A stretch of 64,000 nt of DNA from Mobula birostris (Eukaryota): the NCBI RefSeq assembly GCF_030028105.1, contig NC_092400.1, forward strand, positions 30,586,206 to 30,650,205, written 5' to 3'. Within the stretch, counting starts at the first letter, position 1, and every line of letters starts with the position of its first letter. A program made the translations under genes and the position numbers. Shown here piece by piece: positions 1 through 55,995 of the stretch. The notes below the pieces were generated by a model that was given only the letters and a program-made list of their open reading frames with translations, did no database searches and was not told the DNA's origin.

Positions 1-191
1 AGGTTGTAGTAGCTCAGACTTCTCTGGTCCTGCATCTCCACGCTTTGGCCATTTTGCACCATCAGACGCTGTTGCAAAATGGGCACCTTGGTCTTTTCCT
101 GGATTTTCATCTTGAGTGTCGACACTTGAATGGAAGGGTCGACATCAAGTTCGAAACCATCGCCGGTGATAAACCTCACCTGAAGTCTCAT
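1..191 (-). CDS. ISG15: ISG15-like di-ubiquitin protein, copy A (N-terminal part; runs off the window edge)
   Basis: Nearly identical to the 5' part of the copy B CDS. ATG at 191-189 is preceded by the acceptor ttctcctttctccacag (exon 2 starts at 203). Confidence 0.85.
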   Translation of the reverse strand, partial: MRLQVRFITGDGFELDVDPSIQVSTLKMKIQEKTKVPILQQRLMVQNGQSVEMQDQRSLSYYN

Positions 192-7168: not shown

Positions 7169-7636
7169 TCAGCCTCCACGTAGCCGGAGCAGCAGAGAGA
7201 TGGTGGTTAGTGGTTTGATGTTGTAGTCGGAGAGCAATCGCCCATCCTCCAACTGTTTGCCCTCGTAAACCAGGCGCTGCTGGTCGGGTCTGACCCCTTC
7301 CTGCCGATGGACCCGCGCTTTAAAATTCTGCACGGACTCAGAGGGCATCACGTCGTACGTCGAGGTTTTCCCCTTGTCATTCAGGAGAAATATCTGCATT
7401 GATTCCTCTTTCCTGACCAGCAACATGACGGTGGGGCTGGGGCTGAGGTTGTAGTAGCTCAGACTTCTCTGGTCCTGCATCTCCACGCTTTGGCCATTTT
7501 GCACCATCAGACGCTGTTGCAAAATGGGCACCTTGGTCTTTTCCTGGATTTTCATCTTGAGAGTCGACACTTGAATGGAAGGGTCGACATCAAGTTCGAA
7601 ACCATCGCCGGTGATAAACCTCACCTGAAGTCTCAT
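7169..7636 (-). CDS. ISG15: ISG15-like di-ubiquitin protein, copy B (155 aa)
   Basis: Two tandem ubiquitin-like domains ending in LRLRGG-stop. Fish-ISG15-like motifs [16 protein letters not shown] and [15 protein letters not shown]. Acceptor at 7648/7649, donor at 9012/9013, ISRE promoter. Confidence 0.93.
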
Positions 7637-13889: not shown

Positions 13890-14357
13890 TCAGCCTCCAC
13901 GTAGCCGGAGCAGCAGAGAGATGGTGGTTAGTGGTTTGATGTTGTACTCGGAGAGCAATCGCCCAACCTCCAACTGTTTGCCCTCGTAAACCAGGCGCTG
14001 CTGGTCGGGTCTGACCCCTTCCTGCCGATGGACCCGCGCTTTAAAATTCTGCACGGACTCAGAGGGCATCACGTCGTACGTCGAGGTTTTCCCCTTGTCA
14101 TTCAGGAGAAATATCTGCATTGATTCCTCTTTCCTGACCAGCAACATGACGGTGGGGCTGGGGCTGAGGTTGTAGTAGCTCAGACTTCTCTGGTCCTGCA
14201 TCTCCACGCTTTGGCCATTTTGCACCATCAGACGCTGTTGCAAAATGGGCACCTTGGTCTTTTCCTGGATTTTCATCTTGAGAGTCGACACTTGAATGGA
14301 AGGGTCGACATCAAGTTCGAAACCATCGCCGGTGATAAACCTCACCTGAAGTCTCAT
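13890..14357 (-). CDS. ISG15: ISG15-like di-ubiquitin protein, copy C (155 aa)
   Basis: Same as copy B except D131V and D137E. Ends in LRLRGG. Acceptor at 14369/14370, donor at 15725/15726. Confidence 0.93.
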
Positions 14358-22493: not shown

Positions 22494-22961
22494 TCAGCCT
22501 CCACGTAGCCGGAGCAGCAGAGAGATGGTGGTTCGTGGTCTGATGTTGTAGTCGGAGAGCAATCGCCCATCCTCCAACTGTTTGCCCTCGTAAACCAGGC
22601 GCTGCTGGTCGGGTCTGACCCCCTCCTGCCGATGGACCCGCTCTTTAAACTTCTGCACGGACTCAGAGGGCATCACGTCGTACGTCGAGGTTTTCCCCTT
22701 GTCATTCAGGAGAAATATCTGCATGGATTCCTCTTTCCTGACCAGCAACATGATGGTGGGGCTGGGGTTGAGGTTGTAGTAGCTCAGACTTCTCTGGTCC
22801 TGCATCTCCACGCTTTGGCCATTTTGCACCATCAGACGCTGTTGCAAAATGGGCACCTTGGTCTTTTCCTGGATTTTCATCTTGAGAGTCGACACTTGAA
22901 TGGCAGGGTCGACAGCAAGTTCAAAACCATCACCGGTGATAAACCTCACCTGAAGTCTCAT
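22494..22961 (-). CDS. ISG15: ISG15-like di-ubiquitin protein, copy D (155 aa)
   Basis: Intact ORF, about 8 aa different from copy B, ending in LRLRGG. Acceptor at 22973/22974. Confidence 0.93.
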
Positions 22962-30630: not shown

Positions 30631-32348
30631 AGCACTGCCCCAATGCTCCCTGTCCTTCCTCTTACTTGCCACACCAGCTGAGAAGGACAAGCTTTGTGGC
30701 TTACAAGGAATGGACAGCATGCAAAAAGAGCTGGCAATCCCTGAGGAGCATTGTCCAAGGCCACAGATCAATATCCTTTCATTGTTCCAAAGGGAGCCAA
30801 TGCTGTGTACCAAATCCCCTTTTGGACCCCACCATATCTTCATCTTGGAGTGTGACCATCCCACTTCCCCCAGAAGGTGGTGAATGGTGATGACAGAATC
30901 ACAAGAGGGAATGGCTCCCCACACCGCCCCACTGCAGCAAAATGATCCCCCAGGCTGCTGTTCTCAAAACAGGGGAGCACTTTGTGCGGAGATGAACCTC
31001 TGCTGCTTGACTGACACAGGTAGAAGACACAGGCAGTAGCAGTGAGAGTAGGAAGTACTAGTGGTGGGGACTTGCTGAGTGAACAGGATATTCAGCTCCT
31101 TTTTCTAGTTCCCAGCATATTGTGCCGAAGGATACAAAGTCAGCATCAAATAGAGAGTGGTGACGTGGACCAGGTAACGAGAGGGTTTAGGGTTTGGGCA
31201 CTTGCAGGGAAAGAAGTGAAAATGACGGGATCAGAATGAAGCAGAGTGTGAGGGATGTGACAGGCATGCCACTGTGAGAAGGGTTTGTGGGTGGTAGAGG
31301 AAGGGAAATCCTATTCTTTGAAGAAGGGAGATATCTCTGATGCTCTGCAGATCTGTTCCTAGGATGAGGCTTTCCTCTCCAGAACCTTGGAGATGTCTCC
31401 CCACCCCTACTCAACACAGGGATCGGACTCTCCATTATCCTATCTCCTCCAAGCTTCTCACTTCATTCCCTTTCCCCATCACCTTATAGCTTGCATTCCT
31501 CCCCCTCCCCCAATTTATTATTCTGCATTATTCCCATTTCTTTCCAGTCTGGGCCCCAAACATAGGCTATTTATTCCTCTCCATAGCTGCTGCCTGACCT
31601 GCCCAGTTCCTCCAGTATTTTACCGTGTGTTGCTCTGGATTTCCAGCATCTGTAGACTCTCTTGTGTTTAGACTGAGCCTCAGCAATGTGAAGGTCGATT
31701 TTAATTTCATAGGCACAGGTGCAATGAAAAACTTGCGCAGGCACAGAGTACAGACAGGGACAGGAGGGGAACAGTGAAGAGGACAGGGCCCCTGAACAGT
31801 GGGTGGAGGGATTCAGACTCTGACATACAAGTAAGTTCATTTTGAGATGCGAGACGTGTTTTAGAGGAGGGCAGTTTGCCCCGTGGGTTGGAATGTTATT
31901 CCGGGTGTCTGAATAACTAGAGCGAGAGTCTGAAGGAAAGATGCTTTTTAAAAATAAAAACAAGTGATCAGCGCATATTGAGTCAGCATTGATGGGGCCA
32001 GGAAAAGAGATGGAAAGGAAAGAATCGCTTCTCAACTTTAAACCATAACCTCTATTTCTAGTGTCACCCAACCTCAGTGGGGAAAAAAGCCTGCTTGCTT
32101 TTACCCCATCTATACCGGTCATTATTTTGAATACCTCTATCAAATCTCCCCTCATTCTCCTTTGCTTGTTATGCAAACTTCAGCAAACTCTTTCTGGGAA
32201 CCTTTGGGATGGTGGAAAATATCCTGAGGTTAAATAAACTGGAGTGAATCCAATAGAATGGCCTGTTTGGTCTTGGAAGTGATACTTGACCAGATATTAA
32301 TCAATAGTCTTTTGACCATGTTCTCATTCATCATTTTATTTCTTGCAG

Positions 32349-32524
32349 CGCCACTGCATAATACAAGCAAAGCACATCTCGAACTAATCCAATTTGCAAA
32401 CAATAACGAGATGACAGATGGAGAATTTTCTGCTTGTTTTACGGAACTTCAGAGATCATTTGTGAAGTAGCAATTTCCAAAGGTTAAAGACTTGATTCGC
32501 CTGCTGAAATATTGGTACAAGGAG
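32349..32524 (+). CDS. OASL: OASL-like exon (equivalent to OAS exon 3) with a nonsense codon
   Basis: [34 protein letters not shown] carries the OAS CFTELQ and LIRLxKxWY motifs. Splice sites ttgcag| and |gtgagt. Confidence 0.88.
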
Positions 32525-33547: not shown

Positions 33548-33798
33548 TATGTCAAGCCACGGAAGTCAGAGCTGAGAAATGGAGCACGACTGCCTGCAAA
33601 GTATGCCTTAGAGTTATTGACCATTTATGCCTGGGAGGAAAGTAATCATCAAGAGAGATTTGACACGGCTGAAGGGTTCCGCACAGTCCTGGAACTGATC
33701 TGCAGATATCAGGATCTATGTATCTACTGGACTAACTACTATGATGTCAATAATGCAGTTCTTGCAGACTTCATAATCAAGAAACTCCACAACAGAAG
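33548..33798 (+). CDS. OASL: OASL-like exon (equivalent to OAS exon 4)
   Basis: LPAKYALELLTIYAWE...AEGFRTVLELICRYQDLCIYWTNYY. Splice sites ccctag| and |gtaagg. Confidence 0.93.
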
Positions 33799-33929: not shown

Positions 33930-34430
33930 ATAAGACCACAAGGTATAGGAGCAGAATTAGGCCATTTGGCCCATCAGGTCTGCTGTCATTTTATTATGGC
34001 TGTTTCAATTTTCCCCTTAGCCCCAATCTGCTGCCTTCACCTGTATCACTTCATGCACTGATCAGTCAAGAATCTATCAATCTCTGCCTTAAATATACAT
34101 AAAGGCTTGGCCTCCACAGTTGGCTGTGGCAAAGAATTCCACAGATTCATCACCCTTTGGCTAAAGAAATTCCTCCTTATTTCCAATCTAAAAGGACACC
34201 CTTCTATTCTGGGGCTGTGTCCTCTGGTGTTAAACTCTCCCACCATAGGAAACATCCTCTCCACATCCACTCTATCATGGCCTTTCACCATTCATTAAGT
34301 TTCATTGAGATCACCCTCATCCTTCTGAATTCTAGTGAGTGCAGGCACAGAGCCATCAAATGCTCTTCATATGACAAACCATTCAATCCTGGAATCATTT
34401 TCGTGAACCTCCTTTGAACCCTCTACAGTT
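33930..34430 (-). mobile_element. CR1 LINE 3' fragment in an OASL intron
   Basis: RGHSPRIEG...RRNFFSQRVMNLWNSLP is the CR1 C-terminal motif. Confidence 0.8.
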
Positions 34431-35267: not shown

Positions 35268-35400
35268 ACCGATCATTCTTGATCCAGCTGATCCAACTGG
35301 AAACGTGGCTTCATCAGATGGTTGGGATGTGATGAAAGATGAGGCCAGGAAATGGCTAAGCATGCCTTGTGTCTCTAATGTTGAGGCATGGGATGTCCAG
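35268..35400 (+). CDS. OASL: OASL-like exon (equivalent to OAS exon 5)
   Basis: RPIILDPADPTGNVA...WDVQ OAS signature. Splice sites ttttcag| and |gtaaga. Confidence 0.95.
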
Positions 35401-35906
35401 GTAAGAGTTTGAATAATTGATTTTCAGATATAAGGGAGTGGAAATACATTATTCCCCATCTTCTGTCACTCCGCCAGTGTCTGGCTACTGATAAACATCC
35501 CAGACTGCCTCTGCCCAGGGGATATGCTACAGTCTGTCACAGGCCTTCTGATTTTGCACTGCTTGAATTGTCCTCTATGGTAATTTGCAGTCCCTGGTGC
35601 TGAAAACCAGCCACCTGACCTCACTATGTTGCACATTATTGGTTGAAGTTTTGAGCTAAACCAGGTCCTGGTGACGATGGCACATGTGTTACGTGCAGAT
35701 TTGAATGCCTTGTGACATGGTTCTATTTCATTATCTAGGTTAATCATCCTAAATGTTTAAAGCCTAACCATTTTAAAATACAGCTGATTACCAGGTAATA
35801 CACAACCGAAGCCAGGGGTGACCCAGCTTTTGGGGTCTTGAACTGTGGATTTATACAACATGTTTAATATTGGAAAAAACTTCCTGAGGTGGCAATCTTA
35901 TTGAAA

Positions 35907-36270
35907 CCTATCGAATATTGAAAGGGCTAGACCGTGGACGTGGAGTGGATGCTTCCGACAGTGGGGACTCTAGGACTAGAGGCCAAGCCTCAATAGAGGG
36001 ACATCCATTCAGAATGGCGATGAGAAGGAACTTCTGTAACCAGAGGCTGGTGAATGTGTGGAATTCATTGTCACAGACAGATGTGGAGGCCAAATCACTT
36101 ATTGTATTAAAAGAGGAGGTTGATTGGTTCTTGATTAGTCAGGGCGTCAAAGGTTAAGAGGAGAAAGCAGAAGAATGGGGTTGAGAGGGAAAATAAATCA
36201 GCCATGATAGAATGGTGGAGCAGACTCAATGGGCTGAATGGCCTAATTCTGTTGCTATGTTTTATGGATT
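35907..36270 (+). mobile_element. CR1 LINE 3' fragment
   Basis: MRRNFCNQRLVNVWNSL plus a CR1-type 3' UTR. Confidence 0.75.
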
Positions 36271-37154
36271 TAAGTTTTCAGTGATGTGTCTAGGAAAACT
36301 GATCAGCAGTAGTATCTGGGGCTGTGGAGGAATGGGCAGTTGAGGTTATAGACATAACTATTTTACCCAGGTCAATCCAGAAAAGTTCAGTTCTGGTTGA
36401 TTTCTTTTTCTCCTACTCCTTGTGTTCGATTCACTAAGTTGCTTGACTACAACTGGTAGAAATGACTATAAAATTCAACAGAAAAACTGAGTTACAGCAA
36501 GTGAAATTAACAAGTATCTAACCTGTAACTTGATGATCACACCAAAGTGGGTTCCTTTTTTGATTGTATCTTCAGCTGTGTAACATTAATGAGACGTGGT
36601 TTAATATCACAGGCACATGTCATGAAATTTATTATCTTTGCGACAATGCAGTACATAATAGAGGAAAAAATGAATTACATTATGTGTGTGTGTTTATTAT
36701 ATCTTAAATAGTTGAATTAAGTAAGTAGTGCAAAAAAGAAAGTTGTGGTGTAGTTTTCGTGGCTTCAATGTCCATTCAGAGAGGAAGAAGTTGTTGGGTG
36801 TGACCTTCAGGCTTCTGTACCTCCACCCTATGGTAGCAATGACAAGAGGGCATGTCCTGGGGAGGGGGGGGGTCTTTAATGAAGGACGCCACACTTCTGA
36901 GGCATCACTCCTTGAAGATGTCCTGGATACTACGAAAGCTAGTGCCCATGATGGAGCGGACTAATTTTACAACTCTGTGCTGGTTACCTAATCCTGTGCA
37001 GTAGCTCCACTCCCACACACCGCCCATACCAGACGGTGATGCAGTCAGCTAGAATGCTCTGTCGAAATTTGCAGGTGTTTTTGGTGACAGACCAAATAGT
37101 GGAGAATGGAGCTCCAAATGAACAGCAAATCAGAGTTATCTTCTGATTGAGACC

Positions 37155-37495
37155 ATGATATACAAGATATTAAGAGGAATAGATAGAGTGGACAGCCAAC
37201 GCCTCTTCCCCAGGGCACCACTGCTCAGTACAAGAGGACATGGCTTTAAGGTAAGGGGTAGGAAGTTCAAGGGGGATATTAGAGGAAGGTTTTTTACTCA
37301 GAGAGTGGTTGGTGCGTGGAATGCACTGCCTGAGTCAGTGGTGAAGGCAGATACACTAGTGAAGTTTAAGAGACTGATAGACAGGTATATGGAGGAATTT
37401 AAGGTGGGGGGTTATTTGGGAGGTAGGGTTTAAAGGTCGGCACAACATTGTGGGCCAAAGGGCCTGTACTGTGCTGTACTATTCTATGTTCTATG
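37155..37495 (+). mobile_element. CR1 LINE 3' fragment (same subfamily as 945-1725)
   Basis: High identity to 1390-1725. Confidence 0.88.
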
Positions 37496-37732
37496 ACAGC
37501 CTACTCTGCACTATTCTAGCTCGTATTCCCACAGCACGCATCCACCCTCACTTCAGCCTCTGCAATTTATTCCACAGAGTGCTCCTGGTGCAAGTGTAGT
37601 TTCGCACACTAACGACACCCATTGCCACCCTTCAAGTTGTTGTTTCCCATCTCCCTCTTTTGTTTTCTGTCGCCTCTGAAGTATAAAAGGAACATATTTG
37701 ACTTCTGCCCATTTTTGTTTTGTGTACCTCAG

Positions 37733-38230
37733 CCAGTGAAGACGTTCCGAGTCATGGTGACGACCCTGAATGGTAACTCGTTACAGCAAAATGCCAGCAT
37801 TTACAACAAGGTCTCTGAGATCAAACGTGGCATCCAGGAAAAGTGGAACATCCCAGCTTTTCAGCAACGCCTGCAATTCAAAGACACCATTCTGGATGAT
37901 AGGATCACCTTGCTGGATGCCAAGATCTTCTTTGATGCAGAAATCCAGCTGCTCACCCTGAGTGTAATTGAGATATTTGTCGGGATAGACGGGTGTAACC
38001 TGACGATCCAGGTTTTGCCAAGTGACAAGGTTTCAAGTTTAAAAGCTAAAATTGAATCCCTGGAGCGAATCCGGCGAAGCCAGTACTATTTAACTTTTCA
38101 ATCAACGCTGCTTGAAGATGAACGTACACTGCAATCTTATGGCATTAAGCAATATTCTACCATCCTTGTCAACCTGAGAGTGCGTGGTGGCAGCGAGATT
38201 CAACTTTCTAATGCAGAGGATCCTAACTAA
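37733..38230 (+). CDS. OASL: OASL-like terminal exon: tandem ubiquitin-like domains ending LRVRGG-SEIQLSNAEDPN
   Basis: UBL motifs IPAFQQRLQF...ILDD and LEDERTLQSYGIKQYSTI. The phase-0 acceptor cctcag| is in frame with the previous exon. Confidence 0.9.
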   Translation, partial: PVKTFRVMVTTLNGNSLQQNASIYNKVSEIKRGIQEKWNIPAFQQRLQFKDTILDDRITLLDAKIFFDAEIQLLTLSVIEIFVGIDGCNLTIQVLPSDKVSSLKAKIESLERIRRSQYYLTFQSTLLEDERTLQSYGIKQYSTILVNLRVRGGSEIQLSNAEDPN

Positions 38231-38865: not shown

Positions 38866-38875
38866 AATAAATAAA
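38866..38875 (+). terminator. Predicted poly(A) signal of the OASL-like gene
   Basis: Overlapping AATAAATAAA ~640 nt after the stop, followed by a T/G-rich tract. Confidence 0.6.
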
Positions 38876-38979
38876 GCTGTTTTAATGTTTGAAGGATTAT
38901 CGGGCTGGTTTTGCTTAATCGGGGATCTTATATTCATTTGCTCAAATTATCTATTGTGGGCTATTTAAACTGATTGACT

Positions 38980-39530
38980 ATAAAAGGTAGAACAGAATTT
39001 GGCCATTTGCACCATCGGGCCTGGTCCACCATTCCATCATGGCCGATTTATTTGCCCTCTCAACCCCATTCTGTTGCCTTCTCCCTGTAACCTTTGATGT
39101 TTTTACCAATTGAGAACCTATCAATCTCTGCATTAAATAAACCCAATGACCTAGCCTCCACAGCCATCTGTAGCAATGAAATCTGCAGATTTACCACCAT
39201 TTGGCTGAAGAAGTACCTCCCCATCTTTGTTCTGAAGGTTGTGTGCCCTGGTCTCCGAATGCCCCATTATAGGAAACATCCTCTGCACATCCAGCCTATT
39301 GAGACCTTTCAATTTTCAATAAATTTCAATGAGATATCCCCCCCTCATTCTTCTAAACTCCAGTGAGTACAGGCCCAGAGCCATCATACACTTCGCATAT
39401 TTTAACCCTTTCATTCCTGGACCATTCTTGTGATCCTCCTCTGGATGCTCTCAAATACCAGCACATCCTTTTCACCGATAATGGGCACAAAACTGTTCAC
39501 AGAATTCCAAGTGTAGTCTGATCTATGGCC
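38980..39530 (-). mobile_element. Degenerate CR1 3' fragment
   Basis: Homologous to 33930-34430. Confidence 0.7.
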
Positions 39531-41494
39531 GCTGAATTATTTTCCCATTGTGTTCTAAGTGTCCATTTTGTAAGGATCAGTGTGCTTGGTTTTTTTTATT
39601 CACACGATGTGCGTATCTCCAACAAGATCGGTATTCAGTGACAATCCATCACTACTCCTGAATGGCTTACTGGCCAGTTCAGTGAACAGTTAAAAGTCAA
39701 CACATTGCTGTGAATCTGGTGAGGCAGAATGGGTTAGAAAGTCACTGAACTGGTTGGGGGTTTAAACAAGCTTAAACTTTCCTGGCGACCACCCCCAGCA
39801 CCGGAGTTTACAAAGAGATACTGACTGCCCAGCCTTTTCAGTGACAATAGGCCTTATACATTTGGATCAATGTCCAGATCTATGCAATGTCAGTCAACTT
39901 AACTCCTGTGATAATAATCAGCATATTTACAAATGATTCAGATGATGAGAAAGCAGGCAAAGTTTATTCATGATTGACAGATTGACACAAGGGAGTTATT
40001 TTTTTTATTAATATGATGCTGTTAAGGCAATTTTGGACTTAGGACACATATCAAATAACTTCGGCCACCAATCTTCAGATCTGAATATGGACTGTAGATT
40101 GAGTGTAAAATGCTCTGGAGCATGGGATCGTAGAGGTGTGAAAACAGCAATTGATTGAAGGACCAGACAATATTGATTAACATTGGCTGGTGTGTAGGCA
40201 CAGTTGGGGGGTGGAATAGAAACATAGAAAACCTACAGCACAATACAAGCCCTTTGGCCCACAAAATTGTGCTGAACATGTCCTTACCTTAGAAATTACT
40301 AGGGTTACCCATAGCCCTCTATTTTTCTAGGCTCCATGTATCTCTTAAAAGACCCTATCGTATTCGCCTCCACCACCGTTACCAGCAGCCCATTCCACAC
40401 ACTCACCAGTTTCTGCATAAAAAAACCTACCCCTCACATCTCCTCTGTACCTACACCCAAGCACCTAAAACTGTGCCCTCTAGTGATAGCCATTCCAGCC
40501 CTGGGAAAAAAGCCTCTGACTATCCACATGATTGAGGCCTCTCATCATCTATCAGGTCACCTGTCATCCTTCATCACTCCAGGGAGAACAGGCCAAGTTC
40601 ACTCAACCTGTTTTCATAAGACATGCTCCCCAATCCAGGCAACATCCTTGTAAATCTCCTCTGCACCCTTTCTATGGTTTCCACATCCTTCCTGTAATGA
40701 GGTGACCAGAACTGAGCACATTACTCCCAAGTGGGGTCTGACCAGGGTTCTATATAGCCGCAACATTACCTCTCGGCTCCTAAATTCAGTTCCATGATTG
40801 ATAAAGGCCAATACACCACATGCTTTCTTAACCACAGTGTCAATCTGCACAGCTGCTTTGAGCACCCTATGGACTCGGACCCCAAGATCCTTCTGATCCT
40901 CCACACTGCCAAGAGTCTTACCATTACTGTAATAGTATATTCTGCTGTCATATTTGACCTACCAAAATGAACCACTTCACACTTACGTGGGTTGAACTCC
41001 ATTTGCCACTTCTCAGCCCAGTCTTTCATCCTACCAATGTCCCGCTGCAACCTCTGACAACCCTCTACACTAGTGGTCACCAATCATTTTAAGCCCAAGA
41101 TCCCCTACCTCGACTTCAGTGAAAGGCAAGATCTACCTACTAAATCGTTTAGAGAAAAAACAGCTCAGATTGTACTTCCAATTTGAGGCCTTTTATTTGG
41201 GCGAATTGTGTAATTACACAAAATACTTTTGTCAAACTTTCAAATTAATTCAAACAAGAAAACACTGTAACTAGCATATCAAACAGGCCATAGCTGTCTT
41301 TCTTTAAGAATATTACAACACTTCACACCTTTAATTCTAAGTTTCATTATTTAATTTTATCTCAATACGAAAAATAAATGAATAAAAATTGACTGTTGCA
41401 CTCAGTGTGATGACTGGGGCTGAATACTTTCTGCTAGTTCCCTGAAATTTGGCTCATAACTGCAGACAGCCAGTCTGAGACAGTCTGTGAGGTG

Positions 41495-42517: not shown

Positions 42518-44060
42518 GCGGTAATGACCATTGCTTCCTTGAATAAATCGCCATCTGTAAAAGGCTTCTTGTGTTTAGCCAAAGGGTGACTTACACGAAA
42601 TGATGCTTCAATAGCAGCCTTATTTTGAGCAGCATGTTTTGTGAAAAATGATTGCTGGGCCTTCAACCTCGATTTCAGCTCAATTTTCCAGGCACGAATT
42701 GCGCTCTTTGGGGGGTAGGTGTCTTTAAATTCCTGGTGGTTGGTGTTGTGGTGCCTCTCCAGATTCCCTCTTTTAGTCAGTGCTTGTGTTTGGTGGCACA
42801 ACATACATACACACTTGTCTTTCACCAAGGTAAGTAGAAATTCCTCTTCCTATTCTGGATGGAATTTGTATGTTTTCGCCTTCTTTCGTGGAGCCTCCAC
42901 TATGCTATCAGGATATCACGAGCGATTGCTGATTGCCTTGCCTCTGATCTGAGCCGACATTTACGTGCCGGGCAGCACCTCATTAATTACCTTGTTTATT
43001 TTGGCTTTTTTTCTTAAAAATGTGCTGTGCGCATCCCGACTACCGCTGCACCACTGCCTGCTTCGCGGCCCGGAGGTTGGGGACACTGCCGTATATTGAT
43101 GTTTGCGACAGTCAGGACTCTTATCCCTAATCTGATTGGTCACTTTGATGCAGCACAGGCTACGCTGAAAATGCGGTGCATGTCGGGGGAACTACACACA
43201 TGCACACTGAGCAGAAAGAATGGAACTAAACCCCCGCAAACCGGAAACAATCTCTCTTTACAAACAGCTTTTTAGCAAAAATATTGCTATATTACCATTA
43301 TCCTAATTAGTATCACTTACTTTTATAATGCTCACATTACAACAGTATTTGTGAATTTATTTTTGATTTTTCTTCGGGATCTACTGGGAAAGTCTGAAAG
43401 GTCGACCGGTCGATCGCGATCGACAAGTTGACGACCCTTACTCTACACTATCCACAACACCCCCAACCTTTGTGTCATCAGCAAATTTACAAACCCATCC
43501 CTCCACTTCCTCATCCAGGTCATTTATAAAAAATCACGAAGAGTAAGGGTCCCAGAACAGATCCCTGAGGCACACCATTGGTCACAGACCTCCTTGCAGA
43601 ATATGACCTGTCTACAACCACTCTTTGCCTTCTGTGGGCAAGCCAGTTCTGGATCCACAAAGCAATGTGCCCTTGGATCCCATGCCTCCTTACTTTCTCA
43701 ATAAGCCTTGCATGGGGTACCTTATCAAATGCCTTGCTGAAATCCATATACGCTACATCTACTGCTCTTCCTTCATCAATGTGTTTAGTCACATCCTCAA
43801 AAAATTCAATCAGGCTCAACTTAAAGTATATGTATATATCCTTCTTACTGTTACTTACTATAATAATAATGTTTTATTGTAATGTACTGCTGCGACATAA
43901 CAAATTTCACAACATATGCCAGTGATATTAAACTGGATTCTGATCCTGACCCACACAGGTTTTCTGAGCTCCTCTCACCCTGTCTCCCCAGTTCTGTGCC
44001 CCTCCCCCACCTGCATCCATTAGCCCATCAACTTCTTCCTCACTTTGCTCCACCTATCAC

Positions 44061-46167
44061 AATAGACAATAGATAATAGGTGCAGGAGAGTAGGCCATTC
44101 GGCCTTTCGAGCCAGCACCGCCATTCACTGTGATCATGGCTGATTATCCACAATCAGTATCCAGTTCCTGCCTTATCCCCATAACCTTTGATTCTGCTAT
44201 CTTTAAGAGCTCTATCCATCTCTTTCTTGAAAACATCCAGAGACTTGGCCTCCACTGCCTTCTGGGGCAGAGCATTCCACATATCCACCACTCTCTGGGT
44301 GAAGAAGTTTTTCCTCAACTCCATTCTAAATGGCCTACCCCTTATTCTTAAACTGTGGCCTCTGGTTCTGGACTTACCCGTCAGCGGGAACATGCTTCCT
44401 GCCTCCAGCCTGTCCAATCCCTTAATAATCTTATATGTTTCAATCAGATCCCCCTCTCATCCTTCTAAATTCCAGTGTATACAAGCCCAATCGCTCCAAT
44501 CTTTTAACATATGACAGTCCTGCCATCCCGGGAATTAACCACGTGAACCTACGCTGCACTCCCTCAATAGCAAGAATGTCCTTCCTCAAATTTGGAGACC
44601 AAAACTGTACACAATATTCCAGGTGTGGTCTCACCAGGGCCCTGTAAAGCTACAGAAGGACCCCTTTTCTCCTATACTCAACTCCCCTTGTTATGAAGGC
44701 CAGCATGCCATTAGCTTTCTTCACTGCCTGCTGTACCTGCATGCTTGCTTTCAGTGACTGATGTACAAGAACACCTAGATCTCATTGTACTTTCCCTTTT
44801 CCTAACTTGACTCCATTTAGATAATAATCTGCCTTCCCGTTCTTACTATCAAAGTGGATAACCTCACATTTATCCACATAAAACTGCATCTGCCCACTCA
44901 CCCATCCTGTCCAAGTCACCCTGCATTCTCATAACATCCTCCTCACATTTCACACTGCCACCCAGCTTTGTGTCATCTGAAAATTTGCCAATGTTACTTT
45001 TAATCTCTTCATCTAAACCATTAATGTATATTGTAAATAGCTGCGGTCCCAGCACTGAACCCCGTGGTACCCCACTGGTCGCTGCCTGCCATTCCGAAAG
45101 GGACCTGTGAATCGCTACTCTTTGTTTTCTGTCAGCCAGCCAATTTTCAATCCATGTCAGTACTCTGCCCCTAATACCATGTGCCCTAATTTTGCCCACT
45201 AATCTCCTATGTGGGACTTTATCAAAGGCTTTCTGAAAGTCCAGGTACACCACATCCACCGGCTCTCCCTTGTCCATTTTCATAGTTACATCCTCAAAAA
45301 ATTCCAGAAGATTAGTCAAGCATGATTTCCCCTTGGTAAATCCATGCTGACTCGGACCTATCCTGTTACTGCCATCCTAATGTGTCGTAATTTCATCTTT
45401 TATAATTGACTCCAGTATCTTTCCCACCACTGACGTCAGGCTAACCGGTCTATAATTCCCTGTTTTCTCTCTTCCTCCCTTCTTGAAAACTGGGACAACA
45501 TTAGCCACCCTCCAATCCACAGGAACTGATCCTGAATCTATAGAATTGATTACCAATGTGTCCACGATTTCTAAAGCCACCTCCTTAAGTGCCCTGGGAT
45601 GCAAACCATCAGATCCCAGGGACATATCAGCCTTTAGACCCAACAGCCTATCCAACACCATTTCCTGCCTAATATAAATTTCCTTCAGTTCATCCATTAC
45701 CCTAGGTCCTTTGGCCACTATTATATCTGGGAGATTGTCTGAGTCTTCCCTAGTGAAGACAGATCCAAAGTACCTGTTCAGCTCGTCTGCTATTTCCTTG
45801 TTCCCCATAATATATTCACCCTCTTCTGTTTTCAAGGGCCCAATTTTGGTCTTAACTATTTTTTTCCTTTTCACATACCCAATGAAGCTTTTACTATCCT
45901 CCTTTATATCCTTGGCTAGTTTACCTTCGTACCTCATTTTTTCTCCACTTATTACCTTCTTAGTTATCTTCGGTTGCTCTTTAAAAGTTTTCCAATCCTC
46001 CAGCTTCCCACTCGTCTTTGCTATGTTATACTTCTTCTCTTTTATCTTTACACAGTCCTTTACTTCCCTTGTCAGCCGCGGCCTCCTCTTACTCCTCTTA
46101 GGATCTTTCTTCCTCTTTGGAATGAACTGATCCTGCACCTTCTGCATTATTCCCAGAAATACCTGTC
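44061..46167 (-). mobile_element. 5'-truncated CR1 LINE (~2.1 kb, frameshifted ORF2)
   Basis: Motifs GNYRPVSLTSVVGK, DFQKAFDKVPH, HLEYCVQFWSP. Possible TSD ATCAC. Confidence 0.92.
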
Positions 46168-55527: not shown

Positions 55528-55995
55528 TTAACCTCCACGAAGACGGAGTAGCAGAATGATGGTGCTTTGAGGCTCGATGTTGTAGTCGGAGAGCAACCGG
55601 CCATCCTCCAACTGGATACTCCCAAAGAGCAGGCGCTGCTGGTCGGGTCTGACCCCCTCCTGCCGATGGACCCGCTCTTTAAAACCCTGCACAGACTCAG
55701 AGGGCATCACGTTGTATGTCGTGGTTTCCCCCTTGTTATTCCGGAGGAAGATCTGCATGGATTCCTCTTTCCTGACCAGCAACATGATGGTGGGGCTGGG
55801 GTTGAGGTTGTAGTAGCTCAGACTTCTCTGGTCCTGCATCTCCACGCTTTGGCCATTTTGCACCATCAGACACTGCTAAAAAATGGGCACCTTGGTCTTT
55901 TGCTTGATTCTCATCTTGAGAGTTGACACTTGAATGGAAGGGTCGACGTCAAGTCCAAAACCCTCACCGGTCATAAATTTCACCTGAACTCTCAT
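55528..55995 (-). pseudogene. ISG15: Divergent ISG15-like copy E with Q40* (TAG at 55878-55876); the downstream 112-aa ORF ending in LRLRGG is intact
   Basis: 468-bp frame collinear with copies B-D: MRVQVKFMTGEGF...[12 protein letters not shown]. Acceptor intact at 56007/56008, donor at 63296/63297. Confidence 0.88.

What the first reader, a model, noticed from the sequence alone, without database searches (positions are those of the whole stretch)
37733..38230. OASL-like protein with a di-glycine tail (LRVRGG + 12-aa extension): a potentially conjugatable OAS-family protein
Seen: the second UBL domain ends LRVRGG (38174-38191), followed by SEIQLSNAEDPN-stop. Known: ubiquitin and ISG15 are activated through LRLRGG, and mammalian ISG15 is made with a short C-terminal extension that a protease removes. 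Human OASL lacks the di-Gly, while avian OASL is described with an LRLRGG-type end. Bacterial CBASS CD-NTases, in the same nucleotidyltransferase superfamily as OAS and cGAS, are conjugated through their C-terminus by Cap2. Inference: this lineage's OASL (an intact ortholog or paralog, since this copy is damaged) may be a protease-gated modifier attached to targets by ISG15 or ubiquitin E1/E2 enzymes.
Basis: partly seen in the sequence, partly recalled or inferred. Interest (0 to 1): 0.85.

Follow-up and report, generated by a model that had tools for sequence, protein, structure and literature searches.

The report
Ray OASL pseudogene beside ISG15 cluster
This is the last exon of a broken copy of a ray antiviral enzyme gene (OASL); its intact neighbours keep a ubiquitin-style attachment end under a short tail that is likely clipped off so the enzyme can be attached to proteins, as already reported in chickens, and these genes sit among ISG15-like genes, which hints at where that end likely came from.

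Summary
In detail: 37733-38230 encodes two ubiquitin-like (UBL) domains ending LRVRGG plus a 12-residue tail. This copy is a pseudogene. A 5.2-kb deletion removed exons 1-2, and exon 3 has a TAG. Four paralogs downstream are intact, with catalytic aspartates and the same end. The di-glycine is present in 28 of 31 cartilaginous-fish OASL units and in alligator, finch, coelacanth and lungfish, and absent in 5 of 5 mammals. The proposed mechanism (tail cleavage, then conjugation) is already published for chicken OASL (PMC8764230), so the finding extends a known kind to cartilaginous fish. Conjugation was not tested here. What I did not find in print is the locus: all nine ISG15-like genes found in this genome lie among the OASL genes. 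Both gene types have a splice acceptor 12 bases before the first UBL codon, and coelacanth and boa gene models also join OAS to an ISG15-type domain. Trees favour one ancestral di-UBL but do not prove it (AU p 0.11-0.33). The ray OASL, not its free ISG15-like genes, carries residues matching the human UBA7-recognition patch.

The parts
37733..38230 (+). Last coding exon (exon 6) of the OASL pseudogene: two UBL domains, di-Gly, tail, stop; phase-0 acceptor at 37731-37732
   Evidence: spliced to exon 5 in an RNA-type contig of a paralog or relative
37745..37957 (+). First UBL domain; it has lost its own di-Gly. Starts 12 nt after the acceptor
37967..38191 (+). Second UBL domain, with Y42, T44 and N70 (ubiquitin numbering). 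R11 and P49 of the intact paralog are C and L here
38174..38191 (+). LRVRGG di-glycine motif (Val in place of ubiquitin Leu73; paralogs B1-B4 have LRLRGG)
38192..38230 (+). 12-residue tail SEIQLSNAEDPN and stop; predicted disordered
38866..38871 (+). AATAAA poly(A) signal; two RNA-type contigs end at 38891-38893
32349..32524 (+). OASL exon 3 with in-frame TAG at 32468-32470 (CAG in paralog A)
   Evidence: bounds carried over from paralog A
33548..33798 (+). OASL exon 4 (OAS1_C domain)
35268..35400 (+). OASL exon 5, ending in a phase-0 donor
32019..32022 (.). Junction of a 5.2-kb deletion relative to paralog A; removes two ISRE-like sites, exon 1 and exon 2 (nucleotidyltransferase active site)
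7169..7636 (-). ISG15-like free di-UBL gene, 155 aa, ends LRLRGG-stop with no tail
13890..14357 (-). ISG15-like free di-UBL gene
22494..22961 (-). ISG15-like free di-UBL gene, head-to-head with the OASL copy
55528..55995 (-). ISG15-like gene of the second type, with an in-frame TAG
1..191 (-). 5' part of a further ISG15-like gene that runs off the window start

Best explanation
The stretch is the last exon of a deleted, stop-bearing duplicate of a ray OASL gene, and its intact paralogs encode a 2-5A synthetase domain fused to two ubiquitin-like domains that is likely made as a pro-form, likely clipped after the di-glycine and then likely attached to lysines of itself and other proteins, as reported for chicken OASL. 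Shown: the gene structure, the pseudogene state, four intact six-exon paralogs with three catalytic aspartates, spliced contigs, and conservation of the terminal but not the internal di-Gly. Inferred: interferon induction; tail removal by a host deubiquitinase or deISGylase; activation by the second UBA1-like E1 on contig C20 (UBA7 candidate) rather than UBA1, because the domain has an ISG15-type polar patch in place of ubiquitin's Ile44 patch; and that attachment oligomerises or places the dsRNA sensor. The window's own copy would make no enzyme.
For: R72, R74, G75 and G76 are invariant in 16 of 16 aligned cartilaginous-fish OASLs, while only 22 of 76 second-domain and 8 of 76 first-domain columns are invariant; that set was chosen as rows with a complete motif. 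Unselected count: GG in 28 of 31 units from 18 named species and one unnamed record. Exon 6 evolves fast (dN/dS 0.46-0.54 and 51-52% identity between B4 and the other copies) yet keeps RGG. Paralogs A and B1-B3 splice by GT-AG into open frames with DAD and the third Asp. RNA-type contigs X5, X7 and X9 join exons 3-4, X5 joins 4-5 and X9 joins 5-6, and the long exon-6 contigs have no gaps in the coding part. The tail is predicted disordered. OASL-A has R11, Y42, T44, P49 and N70, matching human ISG15 R92, W123, T125, P130 and N151, which set UBA7 specificity (PMC10409785). The genome has UBA1, UBA6 and a second UBA1-like E1. Chicken precedent.
Against: No cleavage or conjugation was tested. The chicken data are from overexpression; I saw no GG-to-AA control in the parts read, and a K-epsilon-GG remnant cannot be told from ubiquitin (own knowledge). 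The C20 E1 scores higher against human UBA1 than UBA7, so its UBA7 identity is unproven. USP18, UBE2L6 and HERC genes were not searched. A few paralogs deviate (LRLLGG, LRLHGG, LRLKGG, LRLREG). The ray has its own free ISG15-like genes, so it lacks the bird rationale of replacing ISG15. The effect of Val at position 73 is unknown; one search listed no paper with L73V among the 12 shown. No RNase L was found: both PF06479 loci look like IRE1 (identification recalled).
Confidence: 0.6

Rival explanations
1. The motif is kept for recognition, not attachment. The di-UBL mimics ISG15 or linear di-ubiquitin and binds proteases or receptors non-covalently, with or without tail clipping.
For: The 12-residue tail is shared between rays and the sevengill shark, more than a disposable leaving group needs. 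The model resembles linear di-ubiquitin, chicken OASL and ISG15 about equally. Human OASL is described as acting by mimicking polyubiquitin (PMC8764230).
Against: The tail is cut to 3 residues in several lineages and is absent in lungfish, tortoise and axolotl models, while GG stays. Mammals, which use the non-covalent route, lost the motif (5 of 5). Chicken conjugates are reported.
Confidence: 0.22
2. The di-Gly is a vestige of the ubiquitin-like donor gene, kept only because cartilaginous fish evolve slowly.
For: Some paralogs have changed motif residues. The tail DNA is still recognisable behind an early stop in paralog B4.
Against: dS between A and B4 in this exon is 0.72 and half the residues differ, yet RGG is kept. 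The first domain lost its di-Gly in every aligned OASL. The motif persists in chimaera, coelacanth, lungfish, alligator and finch.
Confidence: 0.08
3. The window's copy is not a real second locus but a second haplotype or assembly duplicate of paralog A, with sequencing errors.
For: The flanks match the paralog A block at 97-99%. The contig of DNA run X1 reads C, not T, at the TAG site. RNA-type contigs carry paralog-type letters there.
Against: The copy differs by a clean 5.2-kb deletion and 12 coding changes in exon 6 (9 non-synonymous, 3 synonymous, dN/dS 0.91), many of them C/T or G/A transitions. The X1 contig agrees with the window at 7 of 9 sites that separate it from paralog A, though contigs can be mosaics.
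Confidence: 0.12
4. The window's last exon is used alone as a free di-UBL modifier, starting from a new ATG at 37754.
For: Exon 6 is open, ends in GG plus tail, and has an ACG-to-ATG change.
Against: The ATG falls inside the first strand of the domain, dN/dS against paralog A is 0.91, R11 and P49 are lost, the ISRE-like sites are deleted, and the RNA-type contigs carry other letters.
Confidence: 0.03

Closest known systems
Avian (chicken) OASL, PMC8764230, PDB 7SBI
   Same: OAS domain plus tandem UBL ending LRLRGG with residues after it; catalytic aspartates; pro-form cleavage and conjugation reported there. 7SBI ranks 6-7 in the fold search.
   Different: Cartilaginous fish, multi-copy cluster, LRVRGG in paralog A, an ISG15-type polar patch (Y42/T44/P49/N70) where finch has R42/T44/E49/L70, and free ISG15-like genes beside it, which birds lack.
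OASa.U group of jawed vertebrates, PMC10400998
   Same: NTase-OAS1_C-UBL is described as the ancient architecture, and chimaera OASa works with RNase L in yeast.
   Different: The main text has no occurrence of ISG15, glycine or CaaX. Its 'independently acquired' squamate UBL may be the ISG15-type domain seen in the boa model; its supplement was not seen.
ISG15 (mammalian; UBA7/UBE2L6 pathway, PMC10409785)
   Same: Di-UBL with terminal di-Gly, no internal di-Gly, pro-tail, UBA7-contact residues.
   Different: Here it is fused to a 340-residue enzyme. The ray's free ISG15-like proteins have no tail and a more ubiquitin-like surface (R42, V44, Q49, L70).
Mammalian OASL1/OASL2
   Same: Same domain order; first UBL domains group with the ray's (95/87).
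   Different: Di-Gly lost in 5 of 5 mammal sequences seen.
CBASS CD-NTase conjugation by Cap2 (PMC10097602, PMC11153139; listing and abstract start only)
   Same: A nucleotide second-messenger synthase attached to targets through its C-terminus.
   Different: Bacterial, uses an E1-E2 fusion and no fused ubiquitin-fold domain (recalled). Analogy, not membership.

Membership tests
OASL (OASa.U) | NTase domain with catalytic aspartates | tested here: not met
   Window copy lacks exons 1-2, so it is a pseudogene. Met in paralogs A and B1-B4.
OASL (OASa.U) | OAS1_C domain | tested here: met
   PF10421, E 6e-30; interrupted by the TAG in exon 3.
OASL (OASa.U) | Tandem UBL domains spliced to the OAS exons | tested here: met
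   exon 5-6 junction in RNA-type contig X9 record 23.
OASL (OASa.U) | 2-5A synthesis on dsRNA | not testable with these tools
   Only the residues were checked.
Conjugatable ubiquitin-like modifiers | Beta-grasp fold ending R-x-R-G-G at ubiquitin positions 72-76 | tested here: met
Conjugatable ubiquitin-like modifiers | Motif conserved in intact orthologs | tested here: met
   GG in 28 of 31 units; the 3 misses lie inside merged multi-unit gene models.
Conjugatable ubiquitin-like modifiers | A cognate E1 in the genome | tested here: inconclusive
   Three canonical E1 genes; the C20 gene is a second UBA1-like E1 that scores higher to UBA1 than UBA7.
Conjugatable ubiquitin-like modifiers | Tail cleavage, E1 thioester, isopeptide conjugates | not testable with these tools
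   Reported for chicken OASL except the thioester.
ISG15 (the free di-UBL genes) | Two UBL domains ending LRLRGG, grouping with tetrapod ISG15 | tested here: met
   ISG15 is the best PDB match after ubiquitin. C-domains group 99/95 with the boa domain, whose best non-polyubiquitin match is ISG15; that clade was open in the tree. No mammalian or teleost ISG15 was in the trees.
ISG15 (the free di-UBL genes) | Mammalian polar patch W123/T125/P130/N151 | tested here: not met
   R, V, Q, L at those places.
ISG15 (the free di-UBL genes) | Position next to agrin, as in mammals (recalled) | tested here: not met
   Agrin domain is on C32; all 9 ISG15-like genes are on C36; no UBL hit in 70 kb fetched near agrin.
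ISG15 (the free di-UBL genes) | Interferon induction | tested here: inconclusive
   GAAANNGAAA lies within 4 kb upstream of 3 of 9 copies, about the background rate of 0.14 per kb.
CBASS CD-NTase/Cap2 | Conjugation by an E1-E2 fusion without a fused UBL (recalled) | tested here: not met
   The C-terminus here is a ubiquitin fold. Cap2-like genes were not searched.

The most novel reading that the evidence does not exclude
OASL was born when an OAS gene captured the coding exon of a neighbouring ISG15 gene, at an ancestral OAS-ISG15 locus still intact in rays and apparently in coelacanth and snakes. The first jawed-vertebrate OAS was therefore a conjugatable enzyme, mammals lost the di-Gly, and in sharks and rays OASL rather than free ISG15 is the UBA7 substrate.
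Probability: 0.35. Interest if true: 0.72.

Novelty: new member of a known kind. Interest (0 to 1): 0.42.

Why it matters
The finding as posed shows that the conjugation-ready OASL described in birds is probably the ancestral state of jawed vertebrates, not a bird replacement for lost ISG15, because this ray has both. The locus offers a concrete source for OASL's UBL domains, which PMC10400998 and PMC6307210 describe as acquired without naming ISG15 in the passages I read. Paralog A's natural LRVRGG also offers a test the chicken study lacked: a missed-cleavage VRGG remnant would differ in mass from the LRGG of ubiquitin and ISG15 (inference).

Tried and rejected
A poly-OASL polyprotein: NCBI models P0002-P0005, P0007, P0247 and others chain several units, but in this genome each unit has its own ATG exon and stop, tens of kb apart, so P0002 is a merged model and the others probably are. 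P2RX7 as neighbour: the P2X gene 65 kb from the cluster matches P2X2 best in 2 of 2 exons tested, and HNF1 is 25 Mb away on the same contig, so fine-scale synteny with human OASL is not shown. Proof of a common ISG15-OASL origin: AU tests did not reject independent duplications (p 0.309 and 0.33 with 66 rows; 0.106 and 0.106 with 50 rows after dropping mammals and near-duplicates). No FAT10, NEDD8 or other divergent UBL control was available; loci L033 and L129 proved to be ubiquitin copies. RNase L: not found by PF06479, which is no proof of absence. No run is on record as RNA; X5, X7 and X9 are guessed RNA, though their contigs skip introns. The letters of the GG and tail in those contigs were not fully listed, so they remain unchecked. 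Earlier-findings look-ups returned nothing. No complex prediction was run, as no full ray E1 or protease sequence was at hand.

Full report
Observation. The frame at 37733-38230 gives two ubiquitin-like domains ending LRVRGG-SEIQLSNAEDPN-stop. An AlphaFold model from a 22-row alignment shows two beta-grasp domains and a low-confidence tail. Its fold neighbours are linear di-ubiquitin, chicken OASL (7SBI) and ISG15. Upstream lie three OAS exons, the first with TAG at 32468.

The locus. The window is G000:C36:30586206-30650205. The nearest named protein is P0002, labelled Mobula birostris, at 95%, so this is a mobulid ray. A 464-kb map shows, on the plus strand, the window copy (exons 3-6 only), paralog A, B1-B3, B4 and C. 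On the minus strand lie nine free di-UBL genes, five of them touching the window. The window copy matches the paralog A block at 97-99% but lacks 5.2 kb holding exon 1, exon 2 and two ISRE-like sites. Its exon 6 differs from A by 9 non-synonymous and 3 synonymous changes (dN/dS 0.91). It is a pseudogene. A and B1-B3 splice into open frames of about 500 residues with the three catalytic aspartates and GG plus a 12-residue tail; B4 would end GG-RDN, through an exon 33 kb away. Contigs of three runs guessed to be RNA skip the introns, read C at the TAG site and end just after the AATAAA. They come from intact genes. DNA run X1 also reads C there, while matching the window at 7 of 9 diagnostic sites, so the TAG itself is unconfirmed.

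Conservation. Among the proteins listed (14 of 14, best 120 of 906, best 150 of 7334), 28 of 31 cartilaginous-fish second-UBL ends carry GG; the three misses are inside merged gene models. In 16 aligned rows with a complete motif, N70, L71, R72, R74, G75 and G76 are invariant, and the first domain has no di-Gly. All 17 cartilaginous-fish proteins that end at this domain have a tail of 3-21 residues. The 12-residue form is shared with the sevengill shark, and the 3-residue form stops at the tail's fourth codon. Outside this group GG occurs in alligator (tail 15), zebra finch (6), coelacanth (8), and lungfish, tortoise and axolotl models (no tail); one axolotl paralog has LREG; 5 of 5 mammals lack it.

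What is known. PMC8764230 (read: parts 1, 2, 4 and 5 of 7 and term passages; not part 3, 6, 7 or supplements) says avian OASLs are translated with residues after LRLRGG that must be cleaved, shows pro-form cleavage by viral proteases, and reports conjugates of overexpressed chicken OASL, mostly to itself. I saw no GG-to-AA control there. PMC13185871 (passages) still calls ISG15-like modification by chicken OASL unknown. PMC10400998 (section 5 and passages) finds NTase-OAS1_C-UBL ancestral in jawed vertebrates and does not mention ISG15 in its main text; its supplement was not seen and may bear on shark sequences. PMC6307210 (passages) speaks of UBL fusion without ISG15.

Mechanism. Most likely the intact protein is induced by interferon (ISRE-like sites lie 210-290 bases upstream of A and B1-B4; inferred), binds dsRNA, makes 2-5A, loses its tail to a host protease and is charged by an E1. 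PMC10409785 (passages) gives ISG15 R92, W123, T125, P130 and N151 as UBA7 determinants. Paralog A has R, Y, T, P and N at those places, while the ray's free di-UBL proteins have K, R, V, Q and L. The genome has UBA1 on C34, UBA6 on C21 and a second UBA1-like E1 on C20. C20 is my UBA7 candidate, but it scores higher against human UBA1. None of these steps was tested.

The ISG15 link. All 9 strong matches to the free di-UBL lie in this cluster, none on the agrin contig. They end LRLRGG-stop (one LCGG, one with an internal stop). In them and in the OASL last exon the acceptor AG lies 12 bases before the first UBL codon, against 3 and 6 bases in the two polyubiquitin genes. The ISG15-like acceptor is read from sequence, not from transcripts. 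Coelacanth (P0254, P0393) and boa (P0271) models join an OAS unit to a domain that groups with these free genes; forcing those C-domains into the OASL clade is rejected at p 0.035. Whether real fusions or merged neighbours, they imply adjacency. Trees on 76 columns separate all N-domains from all C-domains plus ubiquitin: 80/77 with 66 rows, 98/99 with 50 rows after removing mammals and near-duplicates, 97/88 with CaaX-type domains added. AU tests do not reject independent origins, and long-branch attraction is not excluded. The genes lie on opposite strands here, so capture would need an inverted copy. The neighbouring P2X gene is P2X2-like, not P2X7. Searches listed no paper describing this linkage; I opened only the papers named here and 10.1101/693333 (passages), and the library lacks most subscription journals.

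Verdict. Real feature, pseudogene copy, mechanism already described in birds, extended here to cartilaginous fish; probability of conjugation about 0.6. The ISG15-OASL locus is the more novel lead. Interest 0.42.

Noticed in passing
G000:C36:30895492-30910115 (+), paralog C; also P0003, P0004, P0012, P0016, P0247, P0248, P0249, P0278, P0393, P0401: A second OAS type has one UBL domain and ends in a CaaX-type motif (CILL here; CTLL, CILM, CTIL, CYIM elsewhere) in rays, sharks, coelacanth and caecilians; turtle, gecko and camel OAS end alike. The UBL groups with OASL first domains. OAS prenylation, known for human OAS1 p46 (10.1101/2025.02.24.639105, passages), may date to the first jawed vertebrates; one search listed no paper on this. 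The G000 copy has a frameshift in exon 3.
   Followed up: partly
G000:C36:30719379-30805916: Paralogs B1-B3 are mosaics: exon 4 has dS 0.54 to paralog A but exon 6 has dS 0.08 (B1), so the di-UBL exon has been swapped between paralogs.
   Followed up: partly
P0002, P0003, P0004, P0005, P0007, P0247, P0248, P0252: Public 'OAS3-like' or 'OAS2-like' models in these fishes chain tandem genes; for P0002 the genome shows separate genes with their own stops. Counts of multi-unit OAS in fish may be inflated.
   Followed up: partly
G000:C20:68359142-68618977 (-): A second UBA1-like E1 gene, less like human UBA1 than the C34 gene (77.6 against 103.9 bits for the matching exon); candidate slow-evolving UBA7.
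   Followed up: partly
G000:C36:30864915-30866636 (+): Decayed exon-1-like and exon-5-like pieces just before the GG-RDN exon suggest a further degenerate OASL copy inside the long last intron of B4.
   Followed up: no
G000:C36:30560586-30561050 (-) and window 55528-55995 (-): The second ISG15-like type (81% to the first) ends LRLCGG in one copy and has an internal stop in the other; Hemitrygon keeps it with LRLRGG (P0134).
   Followed up: partly
window 37754-37756: An ACG-to-ATG change gives the pseudogene's last exon a new in-frame start; probably CpG decay.
   Followed up: partly
G000:C36:30457174-30495773 (-): P2X2-like receptor gene is the nearest identified neighbour of the cluster.
   Followed up: yes
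window about 32050-32150, 33930-34400, 35900-36250, 36700-37500, 38960-39200, 40200-41100, 43500-45400: High-copy repeats, several with LINE reverse-transcriptase-like frames, fill the introns and flanks (LINE label recalled).
   Followed up: no
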